A stretch of 64,000 bases of DNA. Origin: Mycobacteriales bacterium (GTDB taxonomy: Bacteria; Actinomycetota; Actinomycetes; BP-191). Numbering within the stretch: position 1 is the stretch's first letter; every line of letters starts with the position of its first letter. The notes beneath the pieces are model-generated. The model saw only the letters and a program-made list of their open reading frames with translations, ran no database searches and was not told the DNA's origin. This document shows positions 57,383 to 62,273 of this stretch, in pieces. The stretch is from contig DATLOQ010000119.1 in NCBI GenBank assembly GCA_035536235.1, positions 9 through 64,008 of the forward strand, read 5' to 3'. A program made the position numbers and the translations under genes.

Positions 57383-58456
57383 GTGGAGAATCGGCCCATG
57401 GTTGTCGTCATGAGCACCGATGCGTCGAGCGCTGACATCGACGCCGTCGTCGCGGTGGTTCAGGCCGCGGGCGGTGACGCCTTCGTATCCCGAGGGGTGT
57501 CCCGCACGATCGTCGGCCTCGTCGGCGACATCGAGCACTTCTCGAGCCTCAACCTCGCCGCTCTGCCCAACGTCGTCGACGTCCTGCGCATCTCCCGGCC
57601 CTACAAGCTCGTCTCGCGGGAGAGCCACGCCGAACCGTCCACGGTCGTCGTCGGAGGCGTGCCGATCGGTCCGCAGCACTTCACCCTGATCGCCGGTCCC
57701 TGCGCAGTGGAGACAGCTGAGCAGACACTCGAAGCAGCGCAGATGGCGAAGCGGGCGGGGGCGCAGCTGCTGCGCGGTGGGGCCTTCAAGCCGCGCACAT
57801 CGCCGTACGCTTTCCAGGGCCTCGGGGAGGCCGGCCTGAAGATCCTCGCGGACGTGCGAGCCGAGACCGGGATGCCGGTGGTCACCGAGGTCGTCGACGC
57901 CGCCGACGTGCCGCTCGTCGCGTCCTACGCCGACATGCTCCAGGTCGGCACTCGCAACATGGCTAACTTCTCCCTCCTGCAAGCCGTCGGCGAGTGCGGC
58001 AAGCCAGTGCTGCTCAAACGCGGGCTCCAGGCGACACTGGAGGAGTGGTTGATGGCCGGCGAGTACATCGCCCAGCGCGGAAACCTCTCGATCGTCTTCT
58101 GTGAGCGCGGGATCCGGACGTTCGAGACCGCCACCCGCAATACCCTGGACATCTCGGCGGTGCCGATGCTGCACATGCTGAGCCACCTGCCGGTCATCGT
58201 CGACCCGTCTCACGCCGCTGGTCGGCGCGACCTGGTCGTGCCGCTCGCCCGGGCGGCCATGGCAGCCGGCGCGGACGGGGTGATCGTCGACTGCCACCCG
58301 CACCCCGAGGCGGCACTGTGCGACGGACCGCAGGCCCTGGTGGCCAGCGACCTCGCCGAGCTCGCCGAGGCAGCCCGCACCATTCCACCGCTCGTCGGTC
58401 GCACGTCAGCGAGCGGTGGGCGATTCGAGGGTGGCGACACCGAGCTCCGGTCGTAG
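57383..58456 (+). CDS. 3-deoxy-7-phosphoheptulonate synthase, class I-beta, with N-terminal regulatory domain
   Basis: DAHPS/KDO8PS family core (GPCAVE...KPRTSPY...) preceded by a ~80-aa ACT/FL-like extension. Confidence 0.8.
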   Translation: MENRPMVVVMSTDASSADIDAVVAVVQAAGGDAFVSRGVSRTIVGLVGDIEHFSSLNLAALPNVVDVLRISRPYKLVSRESHAEPSTVVVGGVPIGPQHFTLIAGPCAVETAEQTLEAAQMAKRAGAQLLRGGAFKPRTSPYAFQGLGEAGLKILADVRAETGMPVVTEVVDAADVPLVASYADMLQVGTRNMANFSLLQAVGECGKPVLLKRGLQATLEEWLMAGEYIAQRGNLSIVFCERGIRTFETATRNTLDISAVPMLHMLSHLPVIVDPSHAAGRRDLVVPLARAAMAAGADGVIVDCHPHPEAALCDGPQALVASDLAELAEAARTIPPLVGRTSASGGRFEGGDTELRS

Positions 58457-58490
58457 GACGATGCGGCTGGACGCGTCAGGAGGACCACCC

Positions 58491-59741
58491 GTGCGCAGCT
58501 CTGGTCGGCCGCTCATCAGCGCCGAGTCGTTCGAGGCCGTGGTCAGCGGCTATGCCGACCGGGTGCACGACGACGTACGCCGACTCGGAGCAACGCAGGC
58601 CGAGGCCGCCCAGATCGTCGAGATGAGCGCCCTCGACGTCCTCGACTCCGTCCATCGTGGCGAGTGCGCGGAAGTGAGCGCTGTCGTCGGGCAGTGGTTC
58701 AACCAGGCTCGCACGCTCGCCTGCCGCCTCGTCGAGGCCGACGACCAGCAGCGGCCACCTGACCCGGATGCGTCCTCGGAGGCCCCGGAGGGCCTGATCC
58801 GCGACACCGATCTGGACCTGGCCCTGCGACGCGGGCTGGCCGCCATGTCGTCACGGGACCGGGCCGCACTGCTGCTGCGAGACGCCTACGAGCTGCCCGA
58901 AGCCGCCACCGCCACGGCACTCGAGCTCGACATCGCCGCCACCCGCGCCCTCGTCACCCAGGCGCGTCGACACTTCGCTGAGGTCGTCGAGATGCGTACG
59001 CCGGCGGAGGTGCCGCTGCACCTGCGTGGGCTCGCCATCCTCGCGCTCCCGGACGGCGAACGCGACCTCATCCTCGACCGGGTGGCGGCCGCCGCGCAGT
59101 CTCGGCTGCCCTCCGACGGCGACCTGGCCACCCTCGCAGAAGTCGAGGACGACCCGGTATACGGCCCGTCGTGGGTCCTGGTGACCGTGAGCATCATCTG
59201 CGCCCTGCTCTTCGGCGCCTTGACCGGCATCGTGACCGCACCTGCCGGCCCGGGCTCGTTGAGCTCCGGCGGCAGCTTGCCGGAGCCGGTGACCCGATTC
59301 GACGTACGCGCCATCGACCCGGCCTTCCAGACCCCGACCAGCACCCCGGCCGCCACGCCGTCGCCATCCCTTTCGCCGTCAGCGCGCCCGACCCCGAGCC
59401 CGACCCCGAGCCCGACCCCGTCAGTCGCGGAGCCCAGTGCGAGCGCTAGCACTCCGCCGGCGGGTGCGGCGACGATCGCGCTGAGCCCGCAGCGCGGGCC
59501 CGACTGCACCATCGTGCGGGTGGTCGGCCGCAACTTCCCGCCGGGAGCTGCGGCCACCGTGACCTACCTGGACCTCACCGGACGGCCGACGGCCTCTGGC
59601 GGAGAGGGCGCGGTCGGGCCTGATGGCCGCTTCGAGGTGGAGTTCGCCGCCTGCGACCCCAGCCGGCTGCCCGGACCTCACCAGGTCATCGGAGCTGCGG
59701 GTGACCGAGAGGATCGCGCCACCTTCACCGCGACGGCGTGA
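58491..59741 (+). CDS. single-chain ECF sigma factor (sigma-2 + sigma-4) fused to an anti-sigma-like TM segment, Pro/Thr/Ser-rich linker and ~90-aa extracytoplasmic beta-rich (IPT/TIG-like) domain
   Basis: Sigma-2-like FEAVVSGYADRVHDDVRRL...AEAAQIVEMSALDVL...VGQWFNQARTLACRL; sigma-4-like SSRDRAALLLRDAYELPEAATATALELDIAATRALVTQARRHF; TM helix WVLVTVSIICALLFGALTGIVTA; PT linker TPTSTPAATPSPSLSPSARPTPSPTPSPTPS. GTG 58491 with an AGGAGG ribosome-binding site. Confidence 0.5.
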   Translation: MRSSGRPLISAESFEAVVSGYADRVHDDVRRLGATQAEAAQIVEMSALDVLDSVHRGECAEVSAVVGQWFNQARTLACRLVEADDQQRPPDPDASSEAPEGLIRDTDLDLALRRGLAAMSSRDRAALLLRDAYELPEAATATALELDIAATRALVTQARRHFAEVVEMRTPAEVPLHLRGLAILALPDGERDLILDRVAAAAQSRLPSDGDLATLAEVEDDPVYGPSWVLVTVSIICALLFGALTGIVTAPAGPGSLSSGGSLPEPVTRFDVRAIDPAFQTPTSTPAATPSPSLSPSARPTPSPTPSPTPSVAEPSASASTPPAGAATIALSPQRGPDCTIVRVVGRNFPPGAAATVTYLDLTGRPTASGGEGAVGPDGRFEVEFAACDPSRLPGPHQVIGAAGDREDRATFTATA

Positions 59742-59840
59742 CCGCCGCAATGCGTCACCGCGACGGCGTGACCGCCGCACTACGTCACTGCGACGGCGTG
59801 ACCGCCGCACTACGTCACTGCGACGGCGTGACCGCCGCAC
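59731..59840. repeat. 3.7 tandem copies of a 30-bp unit CGACGGCGTGACCGCCGCACTACGTCACTG
   Basis: Read directly: copies at 59731-59760 (variant ...CAATGCGTCACCG), 59761-59790, 59791-59820, and a 20-nt partial at 59821-59840. The first copy contains the stop of the sigma-fusion gene; the last copy encodes the C-terminus and stop of aroG on the other strand. Confidence 0.8.
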
Positions 59841-61206
59841 GGCGCTGCTGCAGCATCTCGGCCACGAGGAACGCCAGCTCGAGGCTCTGGCTCGTGTTCA
59901 GCCGCGGGTCGCAGGCCGTCTCGTAGCGGCTGGCCAGCTGGTGCGGCGCCACTTCTTCTGCCCCGCCCAGGCACTCGGTGACGTCTTCTCCGGTGAGCTC
60001 GACATGGATGCCGCCAGGCCAGGTGCCCAGCGCTGCGTGCACCTCGAAGAACCCGCGGCACTCATCGAGGATCGCGTCGAAGTGCCGCGTCTTGAAGGTG
60101 CCGGAGGAATACGTGTTGCCGTGCATCGGGTCACAGGCCCACACCACCGGATGCCCGGCGTCGCGGACCGCAGTGACCAGCGGCGGCAGCAGATCCCGCA
60201 CCCGCTCGGCGCCCATCCGGGAGATGAGCGTCAGCCGACCCGGGATGCGGCTCGGGTTCAGCGCGTCGGCCAGCGCGACAGCCTCCGCGCCGGTCGCCTC
60301 CGGACCGAGCTTGACCCCCAGCGGGTTGATGACGCCGCGCAGCAGGCCGACGTGGGCGCCGTCGATCCGCCGGGTCCGCTCCCCCAACCACAGCATGTGA
60401 CCCGAGCAGTCCACCCAGTCGCCGCTGGCGTCCTCCCGCCGGACCAGCGGCGCTTCGTAGTCGAGCAGCAGCGCCTCGTGCGAGGCGTACAGCTCCACCT
60501 CGTGCGCCATCTCAAAACGATCGAGGTCGATGCCGCAGGCCCGCATGAAGTCGAGTGCCTGCTCGATCGACGATGCCAGTGCCTCATAGCGCTGGCCGGC
60601 CGGACTGCGGCGGACGAAGTCCTGGTTCCACTCGTGCACCTTGCGCAGGTCCGCGAAGCCGCCGGTGGCGAAAGCCCGGACCAGGTTGAGCGTCGCTGCT
60701 GACTGGTGGTAGCTCTGCAGCAGCCGTCTGGGATCAGGCCGGCGCGCGTCTGGAGTGGCGGCGATGTCGTTGACTGCGTCGCCGCGGTAGGAGGGCAGCG
60801 GGACGCCATCGACCGCCTCGACGTCGGAGCTGCGTGGCTTGGCGAACTGCCCAGCGATCCGCCCCACCTTCACGACCGGCACCGCGGCGCCGTACGTCAG
60901 CACGATGGCCATCTGCAGCAGCGTCTTGAGCTTGTCCCTGATGCCATCAGCGGACAGCGCAGCGAACGTCTCGGCGCAGTCGCCGCCCTGCAGCAGGAAC
61001 GCCTCACCCCGGGCCACCGCCGCGAGCCGGCTCTGCAGGGTGCGGCACTCCCCGGCGAAGACGAGGGGCGGCATCCGGCGCAGCTCCGCTGTGGCGGTGC
61101 CGAGCGCGTCGGCGTCAGGCCACTGCGGCTGCTGCGCGGCGGGCAGCGCGCGCCAGGAGTCGTCGTACGTCGCAGTCACGACACTCAGCCTATGGCGGGC
61201 CGTCAC
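59815..61206 (-). CDS. aroG: 3-deoxy-7-phosphoheptulonate synthase, class II (Rv2178c-type)
   Basis: 463-aa class II DAHPS similarity throughout (KPRSS, GHMLWLGERTR, WACDPMHGNT). Confidence 0.9.
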   Translation of the reverse strand: MTARHRLSVVTATYDDSWRALPAAQQPQWPDADALGTATAELRRMPPLVFAGECRTLQSRLAAVARGEAFLLQGGDCAETFAALSADGIRDKLKTLLQMAIVLTYGAAVPVVKVGRIAGQFAKPRSSDVEAVDGVPLPSYRGDAVNDIAATPDARRPDPRRLLQSYHQSAATLNLVRAFATGGFADLRKVHEWNQDFVRRSPAGQRYEALASSIEQALDFMRACGIDLDRFEMAHEVELYASHEALLLDYEAPLVRREDASGDWVDCSGHMLWLGERTRRIDGAHVGLLRGVINPLGVKLGPEATGAEAVALADALNPSRIPGRLTLISRMGAERVRDLLPPLVTAVRDAGHPVVWACDPMHGNTYSSGTFKTRHFDAILDECRGFFEVHAALGTWPGGIHVELTGEDVTECLGGAEEVAPHQLASRYETACDPRLNTSQSLELAFLVAEMLQQRRAAVTPSQ

Positions 61207-61244
61207 CTGTCAGGTGGGGAGCGGCGTGCCCCAACGTGCCGAGC

Positions 61245-62273
61245 TCAGCCGAAGAAGACCTGCGCCTCGGCGTAGAGCTCCGGCGGCACGGTCTTGAGCG
61301 TGCCCACCGCGTCCGCCAGGGGGACCAGCTCGATGGCCGTGCCGCGCAGCGCGGTCATCGTTCCCCACGCCTGCTGCTGCACGGCGTCGATGGCACGCAG
61401 CCCGAACCTCGTGGCCAGCACCCGGTCGTACGCCGTCGGCGTACCGCCGCGCTGGATGTGCCCCAGCACCGTCGCGCGAGCGTCCTTGCCGGTGCGTCCG
61501 CGGATCTCCTCCTCCAGCCGCTGACCGATGCCGGCGAGGCGGACGTGACCGAAGGCGTCCGTCTCGCCCTCCTTCACCGCCATGGTGCCCTCCCGGGGCA
61601 GCGCCCCCTCTGCCACGACGACTATCGGGGCGTAGCGGGTCTGGAAGCGGTGCTCGATGTGCCGGCACACCTCCTCGATGTCGAAGGGCCGTTCTGGGAT
61701 GAGGATCACGTTGGCCCCGCCGGCCAGCCCGCTGTGCAGCGCGATCCACCCCGCGTGGCGGCCCATGACCTCGACGATCAGCACCCGGTGGTGGCTCTCA
61801 GCGGTCGTGTGCAGCCGGTCGATCGCGTCGGTCGCGATCTGCACCGCGGTGTCGAAGCCGAAGGTGTAGTCCGTGGCGTTGAGGTCGTTGTCGATCGTCT
61901 TCGGCACGCCGACGACGTGCACCCCCTCAGCATGCAGCTTGTCGGCCACGCCGAGGGTGTCCTCACCGCCGATCGCGATGAGCGCGTCGATGCCAATCTC
62001 ACTGAGCGTCGTCTTGATGCGCTCGACGCCGCCCTCGACCTTGAACGGGTTGGTTCGCGAGGAGCCGAGGATGGTCCCACCGCGCGGCAGGATGCCGCGT
62101 ACGTCGGGCACGCTGAGCTCGGTGTAGTCAGACTCCAGCGGCCCGCGCCAGCCATCGCGAAAACCGATGAAGTCGTGACCGAAGTCCTGCACGCCCTTGC
62201 GCACGACGGCGCGGATCACCGCGTTGAGGCCAGGGCAATCACCCCCGCCGGTCAAGACACCGATGCGGCTCAT
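61245..62273 (-). CDS. pfkA: 6-phosphofructokinase
   Basis: GGDGS-type motif (LTGGGDCPGLN), substrate-binding MGR and other PFK motifs. Confidence 0.9.
   Translation of the reverse strand: MSRIGVLTGGGDCPGLNAVIRAVVRKGVQDFGHDFIGFRDGWRGPLESDYTELSVPDVRGILPRGGTILGSSRTNPFKVEGGVERIKTTLSEIGIDALIAIGGEDTLGVADKLHAEGVHVVGVPKTIDNDLNATDYTFGFDTAVQIATDAIDRLHTTAESHHRVLIVEVMGRHAGWIALHSGLAGGANVILIPERPFDIEEVCRHIEHRFQTRYAPIVVVAEGALPREGTMAVKEGETDAFGHVRLAGIGQRLEEEIRGRTGKDARATVLGHIQRGGTPTAYDRVLATRFGLRAIDAVQQQAWGTMTALRGTAIELVPLADAVGTLKTVPPELYAEAQVFFG

What the first reader, a model, noticed from the sequence alone, without database searches (positions are those of the whole stretch)
59720..59840. 30-bp tandem repeat array supplying the stop codons and C-termini of two convergent genes
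Between the sigma-fusion gene (+) and class II aroG (-) lie 3.7 perfect or near-perfect tandem copies of CGACGGCGTGACCGCCGCACTACGTCACTG. Each unit carries TGA in the plus frame and TCA (TGA on the minus strand) in the minus frame, and a small palindrome (CGGCG TGAC CGCCG). The plus gene ends TATA-stop inside the first copy. AroG ends AAVTPSQ-stop inside the last copy. Duplication of a terminator-like unit has therefore created translatable repeat proteins on both strands (track ORFs 59738-59926 and 59421-59840). This is not a CRISPR array: there are no unique spacers.
Basis: seen in the sequence. Interest (0 to 1): 0.5.

Follow-up and report, generated by a model that had tools for sequence, protein, structure and literature searches.

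The report
Tandem-duplicated overlap of two gene ends
A short stretch where two facing genes once overlapped tail-to-tail has been copied four times in a row, which pushed the genes apart without changing either protein; it is a real but ordinary variable-number tandem repeat, with an unusual origin.

Summary
The repeat is real: four head-to-tail 30-bp units at 59725-59844 (TRF score 204), found nowhere else in the window. The + gene stops in the first unit and class II aroG stops in the last. Every unit carries both stops in frame.

The causal reading is reversed. In five single-copy relatives the same sequence occurs once, and the two convergent genes overlap by 17 bp (11 bp in one). Their C-termini, FTAT[SAG]* and ..VTPS/VSSSR*, are already present. 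The array is therefore a tandem duplication of the overlapped gene ends. It is not a terminator that donated C-termini.

Copy number varies among close relatives: 4x30 bp here, and 3x29 versus 2x29 bp in two contigs whose aroG is 99.8% identical. Other lineages carry separate, older duplications of the same junction (2x20 bp, and probably 2x18 bp).

Each unit contains both stop codons, so gain or loss of copies is silent for both proteins.

The unit is a G·U-dependent hairpin on the aroG-sense RNA only (z -4.7, against +0.9 on the other strand). This structure is inherited from the ancestral sequence, and later substitutions weakened it.

The two "repeat protein" ORFs lack coding signatures. 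The unit is not a dispersed element and not CRISPR.

The parts
59725..59844 (.). Tandem array of four 30-bp units (59725-59754, 59755-59784, 59785-59814, 59815-59844). On the aroG-sense strand the unit is CGCCGTGCGGCGGTCACGCCGTCGCGGTGA and variants of it.
   Evidence: TRF score 204, period 30, 96% identity. Copies shown in register. No other copy in the window.
58416..59741 (+). Convergent neighbour gene. It has a weak ECF-sigma-like N-terminal part (region 4), one transmembrane segment, a Pro/Thr/Ser linker and a conserved C-terminal domain ending ..TFTATA*. Its real stop, TGA at 59739-59741, lies in unit 1.
   Evidence: ORF list. Pfam Sigma70_r4_2 scores 24.2 bits, below the cut-off. NCBIfam sigma models score far below their cut-offs. 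The C-terminus FTAT[SAG]* is conserved in all 10 related loci.
59815..61179 (-). Class II 3-deoxy-7-phosphoheptulonate (DAHP) synthase, aroG. Its real stop (TCA on the + strand, 59815-59817) lies in unit 4. The longest ORF runs up to 61206, but the deposited protein starts at GTG 61179.
   Evidence: Pfam PF01474, 670 bits. TIGR01358 equivalog, 708 bits against a cut-off of 615, with the model ending 7 residues before the stop. P0121 (HVE64079.1) is identical from V10 onward.
59742..59814 (.). 73-bp untranslated spacer between the two real stop codons. It is made entirely of repeat copies, which are pseudo-copies of both gene ends. The single-copy ancestral state was a 17-bp overlap.
   Evidence: Stop-to-stop distance table across 11 loci: -17, -17, -17, -17, -11, +12, +12, +12, +13, +44, +73.
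59769..59831 (+). Redundant in-frame TGA copies of the + gene's stop, at 59769-71, 59799-801 and 59829-31.
   Evidence: Frame translation of the array.
59725..59787 (-). Redundant in-frame copies of aroG's stop (TCA on the + strand), at 59785-87, 59755-57 and 59725-27. The last of these is the position of the ancestral aroG stop.
   Evidence: Frame translation. Alignment with single-copy orthologs.
59725..59844 (-). Long imperfect hairpin, dependent on G·U pairs, predicted only for the aroG-sense transcript.
   Evidence: MFE -80.6 kcal/mol, z = -4.66 on the minus strand, against -49.7, z = +0.88 on the plus strand. The same asymmetry is seen in L001 (z -5.94 against +0.42).
59738..59926 (+). 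Mechanical 62-aa ORF starting in the repeat and running antisense into aroG. Judged not to be a gene.
   Evidence: ORF list. GC1 is 0.62 overall and 0.37 outside the repeat, against about 0.72 in real genes. Its start lies in copies that single-copy relatives lack.
59421..59840 (-). Mechanical 139-aa Arg-rich ORF starting in the repeat and running antisense through the + gene. Judged not to be a gene.
   Evidence: ORF list. GC1/2/3 = 0.81/0.69/0.71, against about 0.72/0.50/0.88 for real genes.

Best explanation
The array is a locus-specific variable-number tandem repeat (minisatellite). It arose by tandem duplication of the short segment in which two convergent genes overlapped tail-to-tail.

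Ancestral state (shown). aroG and the membrane-anchored sigma-like gene shared 17 bp, TCA-N11-TGA. AroG's last residues were simply the antisense reading of the neighbour's conserved C-terminus FTATx*.

Duplication (shown). In the lineage of this window, a 30-bp segment containing both stop codons was duplicated, and is now present in 4 copies. Each gene still ends at the first stop it meets: the + gene in unit 1 and aroG in unit 4. The inner copies are untranslated pseudo-ends. The 17-bp overlap has become a 73-bp spacer.

Why copy number drifts (inferred). Because every unit carries both stops, adding or removing units changes neither protein. This kind of duplication therefore escapes purifying selection, and copy number is free to drift. 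Two, three and four copies are seen in close relatives.

How it formed (inferred). The ancestral 30-nt unit is almost exactly one stem-loop. Hairpin-assisted replication slippage or unequal recombination is the likely mechanism of duplication and of later expansion and contraction.

Function (inferred). No selected function is required. The strand-specific RNA hairpin and the separation of the two genes are by-products that may nevertheless affect aroG 3'-end formation.
For: The array is real and unique in the window.

Orthologous loci were recovered through AroG homologs. L003, L004, L005 and L006 have a single copy with a 17-bp overlap. L002 has a single copy with an 11-bp overlap. The junction GGTCAsCyCGTCGCGGTGAAsGT aligns base for base with one unit of the array. 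The neighbour's C-terminus FTAT[SAG]* is conserved in all 11 loci, and AroG tails are homologous (VTPSx*, VSSSR*).

Copy-number variation. The window has 4x30 bp. L001 has 3x29 bp. L109 has 2x29 bp, although its aroG is 99.8% identical at nucleotide level to L001's. These come from three different assemblies and sources (a TPA MAG, ENA and JGI).

Independent events. L110 and L191, two independent assemblies, carry an older 2x20-bp duplication of the same junction. All 5 substitutions in the second copy are synonymous for the neighbour gene. L192 has an 18-nt insertion consistent with a diverged 18-bp duplication. It groups with the overlapping loci L004 and L005 at 89% bootstrap.

A related case elsewhere. 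An unrelated locus, L117 (AroG 66% identical), has a 26-bp x ~4 array duplicating the aroG end with its TGA. That is 1 of 76 background loci.

Hairpin. The ancestral unit folds as one hairpin (-22.6 kcal/mol; 29 of 30 nt). A perfect 4x ancestral array would be more stable (-93.3) than the real one (-80.6), so later substitutions weakened the structure rather than strengthening it.

Literature. [quoted passage not shown] Gene overlaps are gained and lost repeatedly (bioRxiv 10.64898/2026.09.10.750558).
Against: Neutrality is inferred, not shown. The junction was de-overlapped two or three times independently in a small clade, which could reflect selection for separating the genes. The aroG-sense RNA hairpin is far more stable than shuffles (z -4.7 and -5.9), so an RNA-level role cannot be excluded. 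The unit is 30 bp here and 29 bp in L001 and L109, with different junction bases (CGTAG or CGCAT, against TCAG). A single origin therefore requires an indel followed by homogenisation; otherwise two origins are needed. The source genome is not in the searched collections, so I could not check the rest of that genome for other copies, and I could not inspect reads. The L192 duplication is weakly supported statistically (12 of 18 matches between its copies).
Confidence: 0.75

Rival explanations
1. A selected RNA element. The array was retained because, in the aroG transcript, it folds into a long G·U-rich hairpin. This hairpin would end or stabilise the aroG mRNA 3' end and insulate the two convergent transcription units. 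Copy number would tune the effect.
For: There is strong strand asymmetry. The aroG-sense RNA has z = -4.66 (window) and -5.94 (L001), while the opposite strand has +0.88 and +0.42. Single-copy overlapping relatives have no unusual structure there (z 0.1 to 1.7). The overlap was lost repeatedly in this clade.
Against: There is no T/U-run after the hairpin on either strand, and no terminator call inside the array. No Rfam family matches: the only hit is a miRNA model at E = 0.29, 22 bits against a gathering score of 90. The hairpin is already present in the inferred single ancestral unit. The substitutions that followed duplication lowered stability, from -93.3 to -80.6 kcal/mol. There are no compensatory pair changes between the window and L001. 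The L109 two-copy allele is not significantly structured (z -1.5).
Confidence: 0.14
2. A terminator-like unit was duplicated between the genes and now supplies new C-termini and stop codons to both. It also created translated repeat proteins on both strands.
For: Both genes do terminate inside the outer copies, and every unit has both stops in frame. ORFs that start in the array exist mechanically.
Against: Single-copy relatives already have the same C-termini and stops in the homologous sequence, with the genes overlapping. No terminator signature is present. The ORFs have non-coding codon-position GC, and their starts are absent from relatives. The 29-bp unit in L001 and L109 is not a multiple of 3, so no protein-repeat constraint acts on the period.
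Confidence: 0.02
3. Insertion of a dispersed or mobile intergenic repeat (MIRU-, REP- or MITE-like) between the two genes.
For: The host is a Mycobacteriales MAG, a group known for MIRUs. The unit is palindromic and sits at gene 3' ends, as REP elements do.
Against: There is no other copy in 64 kb. The 19-nt core gave only 102 single hits in 185,579 species genomes. These are in unrelated taxa, none lies beside aroG and none is tandem, which is consistent with my own rough estimate of the chance expectation. The unit is homologous, base for base, to the resident single-copy gene junction of relatives.
Confidence: 0.03
4. An assembly artefact of a short-read metagenome assembly. The true copy number would be 1.
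For: The source is a MAG, and short tandem repeats can be mis-assembled. No reads were available to check.
Against: Arrays occur at the same junction in three independent assemblies from different projects, with internally consistent variants. The units are not identical: units 1 to 3 differ at 3 positions and carry distinct junction bases. The 2x20 structure is reproduced exactly in ENA and JGI assemblies. The whole array (120 bp) is shorter than typical read or k-mer spans (inference).
Confidence: 0.03
5. An iteron-like array of binding sites for a DNA-binding protein. The candidate site is the inverted GTGAC..GTCAC motif in each unit.
For: Each unit contains GTGAC and GTCAC in inverted orientation at regular 30-bp spacing.
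Against: These pentamers are just the two stop codons with their flanking bases, inherited from the coding overlap. No regulator, promoter or replication gene is associated with the array. The site lies at the 3' ends of both genes.
Confidence: 0.03

Closest known systems
Locus-specific bacterial VNTRs (minisatellites) that overlap a gene's stop codon, for example the 10 of 88 Yersinia pestis MLVA loci described in PMC3689786. From my own knowledge, the ETR, QUB and Mtub loci of Mycobacterium tuberculosis are similar.
   Same: Head-to-tail units of tens of bp at one locus. Copy number differs between near-identical strains. The stop codon lies inside the unit, so copy-number change leaves the protein essentially unchanged.
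   Different: Here one unit carries the stop codons of two convergent genes, because it was copied from a tail-to-tail coding overlap. Expansion converts an overlap into a spacer. I found no paper describing this.
MIRUs (mycobacterial interspersed repetitive units)
   Same: They occur in Mycobacteriales and form tandem arrays with variable copy number. Their units' small ORFs mesh with the ends of flanking genes.
   Different: As described in PMC12548453, MIRUs appear mobile, occur in many mycobacteria, and insert at start codons so that their ORF couples to the downstream gene at -4 nt. The unit here is single-locus, derived from resident sequence, lies between convergent genes and is 30 bp long.
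REP/BIME-type intergenic palindromes at gene 3' ends (own knowledge)
   Same: Hairpin-forming repeats, often between convergent genes, that can protect the upstream mRNA 3' end.
   Different: REPs are dispersed in tens to hundreds of copies per genome and are linked to RAYT transposases. This unit is not dispersed in any searched genome and is homologous to coding sequence.
Gain and loss of short gene overlaps in prokaryotes (bioRxiv 10.64898/2026.09.10.750558; PMC4161906)
   Same: Overlap is an evolutionarily labile state. Convergent overlaps are a minority class, 6.2% of short overlaps.
   Different: From my own knowledge, the mechanisms usually described are point mutations or indels that move a stop or start codon. 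Here the overlap was lost by tandem duplication of the overlapped segment, which keeps both protein ends intact.

Membership tests
VNTR / minisatellite overlapping a stop codon | Head-to-tail repeats of a 10-100-bp unit at a single locus | tested here: met
   4 x 30 bp, 96% identity, TRF score 204. Unique in the window.
VNTR / minisatellite overlapping a stop codon | Copy number differs between closely related genomes | tested here: met
   4 copies in the window, 3 in L001 and 2 in L109. L001 and L109 aroG are 99.8% identical.
VNTR / minisatellite overlapping a stop codon | The stop codon lies inside the unit, so the protein is unaffected by copy number | tested here: met
   Both genes' stops recur in frame in every unit. 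The C-termini equal those of single-copy orthologs.
MIRU | A dispersed family: the same unit at many loci of a genome and in many mycobacteria | tested here: not met
   No other copy in 64 kb. Only single, chance-level hits in 185,579 genomes, none tandem. The full source genome was not available.
MIRU | Inserted between co-directional genes at a start codon, with an internal ORF coupled at -4 nt | tested here: not met
   The flanking genes are convergent, and the array lies at two stop codons. MIRU definition taken from PMC12548453.
REP/BIME-type palindromic elements | Tens to hundreds of dispersed copies per genome | tested here: not met
REP/BIME-type palindromic elements | An imperfect palindrome able to form a stem-loop in the transcript at a gene's 3' end | tested here: met
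   The unit folds at -22.6 kcal/mol and the array at -80.6 kcal/mol, z -4.66, on the aroG-sense strand only.
CRISPR array | Direct repeats separated by unique spacers of similar length | tested here: not met
   The units are contiguous with a 30-bp start-to-start spacing equal to the unit length.
Intrinsic (Rho-independent) terminator, uni- or bidirectional | A GC-rich hairpin followed by a U-run (and preceded by an A-run for bidirectional action) | tested here: not met
   The consensus scan finds no terminator in the array. The only hit in 58000-61500 is at 59939-59951, inside aroG. No T-run flanks the array.
Known structured RNA family (Rfam) | A match reaching the family's gathering score | tested here: not met
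   The only hit is MIR439, 22 bits against a gathering score of 90, E = 0.29.

The most novel reading that the evidence does not exclude
Tandem duplication of a segment that contains both stop codons may be a general route by which tail-to-tail (convergent) gene overlaps are dissolved without touching either protein. At this locus it happened two or three times independently. In the window's lineage the product has become an active VNTR. Its aroG-strand-specific G·U hairpin array might now tune aroG 3'-end formation or insulate convergent transcription in a copy-number-dependent way.
Probability: 0.15. Interest if true: 0.5.

Novelty: new variant of a known kind. Interest (0 to 1): 0.28.

Why it matters
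The finding corrects an attractive but wrong reading, that a repeat created gene ends. It shows instead a clear example of how a coding overlap between two facing genes can be undone. Copying the overlapped piece, stops included, gives each gene its own private end and leaves silent pseudo-ends in between. After the split, each copy evolves under one gene's constraint only. This is visible in L110, where all five changes in the second copy are synonymous for the neighbour gene. If it proves general, this is a neutral and reversible mechanism for losing convergent overlaps. It is also a source of strain-typing VNTRs located exactly at such junctions. In practical terms, the array is a strain marker for an uncultured Mycobacteriales lineage, and it warns annotators not to call the repeat-initiated ORFs.

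Tried and rejected
- Exact look-ups of the window's AroG, both the longest ORF and the deposited form P0121, found no indexed contig. The source contig and its reads could not be examined.
- The genome-contig scan with the 19-nt core returned 102 single hits in unrelated taxa. None was tandem and none lay beside aroG. This rejects a dispersed family, and it also means the source genome is not among the species representatives.
- The metagenome scan for a tandem pattern returned 0. It failed even to return the JGI contig L109, which matches the pattern, so that collection is incomplete for short contigs.
- The metagenome protein scan returned only relatives at 78% identity or less. These were useful only as a background set.
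- Rfam gave no credible hit.
- The promoter and terminator scan found nothing in the array.
- I looked for compensatory base-pair changes between the window and L001 arrays. There are only one-sided changes (C-G to U-G), and too few sequences for a covariation test.
- I tested whether substitutions after duplication strengthened the hairpin. They weakened it.
- Literature searches for de-overlap by tandem duplication found nothing specific.
- CRISPR, iteron and translated-ORF readings were considered and rejected, for the reasons given under the rival explanations.

Full report
**Observation**

The sequence at 59720-59845 contains a tandem array. Tandem Repeats Finder reports 59725-59840, period 30, 3.9 copies, 96% matches, no indels and score 204. 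This is the strongest array in the window. The 17-nt core occurs four times, only here. If the diverged last 5 nt are counted, the array is exactly four units, 59725-59844.

The + ORF 58416-59741 has only weak ECF-sigma-like similarity. By eye it also has a transmembrane segment and a Pro/Thr/Ser linker. It ends ..TFTATA-TGA at 59739-59741, in unit 1. The minus-strand gene is a class II DAHP synthase (PF01474, 670 bits; TIGR01358, 708 bits against a cut-off of 615). It ends ..AAVTPSQ with its stop at 59815-59817, in unit 4.

In the + gene's frame the array reads TATA*PPQCV TATA*PPHYV TATA*PPHYV TATA*PPHG. In aroG's frame it reads RRAAVTPSQ* RSAAVTPSQ* RSAAVTPSR* RIAAVTPSR*.

**Source organism**

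The closest AroG cluster contains HVE64079.1, annotated as 'MAG TPA: Mycobacteriales bacterium'. It is identical to the window's AroG from the GTG at 61179. The window thus comes from an uncultured Mycobacteriales MAG. That genome is not indexed in the contig look-up. It is also not among the GTDB species representatives, since no genome returned the four expected matches.

**Orthologous loci**

I fetched the DNA around AroG homologs. All of them keep the same neighbourhood: PFK, aroG, then the convergent sigma-like gene.

In L003, L004, L005 and L006 the junction sequence occurs once, and the two genes overlap by 17 bp (TCA...TGA). In L002 it occurs once with an 11-bp overlap. That single copy, GGTCAsCyCGTCGCGGTGAAsGT, aligns base for base with one unit of the window's array.

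The neighbour's C-terminus is FTAT[S/A/G]* in all 11 loci (FTQTA* in L006). AroG's tail is VSSSR*, VTPSA*, VTP* or VTPSx*. That tail lies beyond the family model and is simply the antisense reading of the neighbour's conserved last codons.

Both C-termini and both stops therefore pre-date the repeat. The repeat is a duplication of the overlapped gene ends, not a donor of them. Only AroG's last residue (R to Q) differs because of the array.

**Copy-number variation and recurrence**

L001 (ENA; AroG 94% identical) carries three units of a 29-bp version. L109 (JGI) carries two units, and it equals L001 minus its first unit. Yet the aroG genes of L001 and L109 are 99.8% identical. Together with the window's four units, this is genuine VNTR behaviour within a clade supported at 100% bootstrap.

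L110 (ENA) and L191 (JGI) are independent assemblies that agree exactly. They carry an older 2x20-bp duplication of the same junction, CCGGTCAGCTAGTCGCAGTG / CCGGTTAACTGGTAGCTGTG. aroG stops in the first copy and the neighbour stops in the second. All five substitutions in the second copy are synonymous for the neighbour gene. This is the pattern expected once each copy serves only one gene.

L192 has an 18-nt insertion relative to its closest relatives, L004 and L005, which still overlap (89% bootstrap for the grouping). The insertion looks like a diverged 18-bp duplication (12 of 18 matches, weak on its own).

Stop-to-stop distances across the 11 loci are -17 (four loci), -11, +12 (three loci), +13, +44 and +73. 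The overlap was therefore dissolved at least twice, and probably three times, each time by duplication.

I also examined 76 more distant aroG loci as a background set. One of them, L117, has an independent 26-bp x ~4 array that duplicates the aroG end with its TGA. So stop-containing 3'-end duplications recur elsewhere.

**Why such arrays are tolerated (inference)**

A tandem duplication inside either coding region would alter a protein. A duplication that includes both stops leaves each gene ending at the first stop it meets. The extra copies are untranslated, so expansion and contraction are silent.

The literature already notes this for single genes. [quoted passage not shown] Gene overlaps are known to be gained and lost repeatedly, and convergent ones make up 6.2% of short overlaps (bioRxiv 10.64898/2026.09.10.750558). 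I found no paper describing loss of an overlap by tandem duplication.

**Structure**

As RNA, the array is far more stable than shuffles on the aroG-sense strand only. The window gives -80.6 kcal/mol, z -4.66, against z +0.88 on the other strand. L001 gives z -5.94 against +0.42. The asymmetry comes from G·U pairs, which become C·A mismatches on the complement.

Single-copy overlapping relatives show no unusual structure (z 0.1-1.7). However, the inferred single ancestral unit of this lineage is itself one hairpin: 29 of 30 nt, -22.6 kcal/mol. A perfect 4x ancestral array would be more stable (-93.3) than the real one (-80.6).

The structure is therefore inherited and has decayed since duplication. 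This does not point to selection for it. The near-coincidence of the unit's ends with the base of the hairpin suggests hairpin-assisted slippage as the duplication mechanism (inference).

There is no U-run, no terminator call in the array and no Rfam family.

**Rejected readings**

- CRISPR: there are no spacers.
- Dispersed MIRU- or REP-like element: there is no second copy in the window. Across 185,579 genomes there were only 102 single hits in unrelated taxa, none tandem and none beside aroG.
- Translated repeat proteins: the ORFs 59738-59926 (+) and 59421-59840 (-) start in copies that relatives lack. Their codon-position GC is non-coding-like.
- Assembly artefact: unlikely, given arrays at the same junction in independent assemblies with internally consistent variants. 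It is untested at the read level.

**Verdict**

This is a real, locus-specific VNTR in an uncultured Mycobacteriales genome. It was created by tandem duplication of a 30-bp hairpin-forming segment that contained the 17-bp tail-to-tail overlap of aroG and its convergent neighbour. It belongs to a known kind, VNTRs that overlap a stop codon. The twist is that one unit holds the stops of both genes, and that expansion turns an overlap into a spacer.

A selected RNA or insulator role remains possible (about 0.15) but has no positive support beyond thermodynamic stability. Interest is modest.

Noticed in passing
window 57383-58456 (+) and 59815-61179 (-): Two DAHP synthases of different classes sit within 4 kb and flank the sigma-like gene. 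One is class I-beta with an N-terminal ferredoxin-like (FXD) domain; the other is class II. The same pairing is kept in relatives L002 and L003.
   Followed up: partly
window 58416-58456; L002 7694-8740: In relatives (L002, L003, L005, L110, L191, L192) a Beta_elim_lyase-family gene lies just beyond the sigma-like gene; in L002, the only locus whose flank reaches that far, the class I DAHP synthase follows it. In the window that gene is absent, with no tblastn hit anywhere in the 64 kb. The sigma-like ORF's predicted start overlaps the end of the DAHP-I gene by 41 nt.
   Followed up: partly
window 59386-59420: A perfect 12-bp x 2.9 in-frame repeat, GCCCGACCCCGA, encodes PTPSPTPSPTPS in the Pro/Thr/Ser linker of the sigma-like gene. 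This is a second, coding tandem repeat 300 bp from the array.
   Followed up: no
L117 3300-3400: An independent 26-bp x ~4 tandem array duplicates the 3' end of aroG, including its TGA (..AELLRNG*), in a distant relative (AroG 66% identical). The downstream gene there is co-directional.
   Followed up: partly
L182, about 50-170 nt after the aroG stop: A 51-bp x 2.3 tandem repeat (95% matches, score 217) lies downstream of aroG in another distant relative.
   Followed up: no
window 59815-59845; all related loci: AroG's C-terminal tail beyond the family model (VSSSR*, VTPSx*) is the antisense translation of the neighbour gene's conserved C-terminus FTATx*. More distant AroG homologs end at ..EMLQxR with no tail. 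The overlap itself therefore arose by extension of AroG into the neighbour gene.
   Followed up: partly
window 61179-61206: The longest aroG ORF starts at GTG 61206. The deposited protein (HVE64079.1) and all homologs start 9 codons downstream, at GTG 61179.
   Followed up: yes
L109 (JGI 3300012680, Ga0136612_10053360): This JGI contig contains a sequence matching the tandem pattern searched, yet the metagenome-contig scan returned nothing. That collection evidently does not hold every JGI contig, so its negative results are weak.
   Followed up: no
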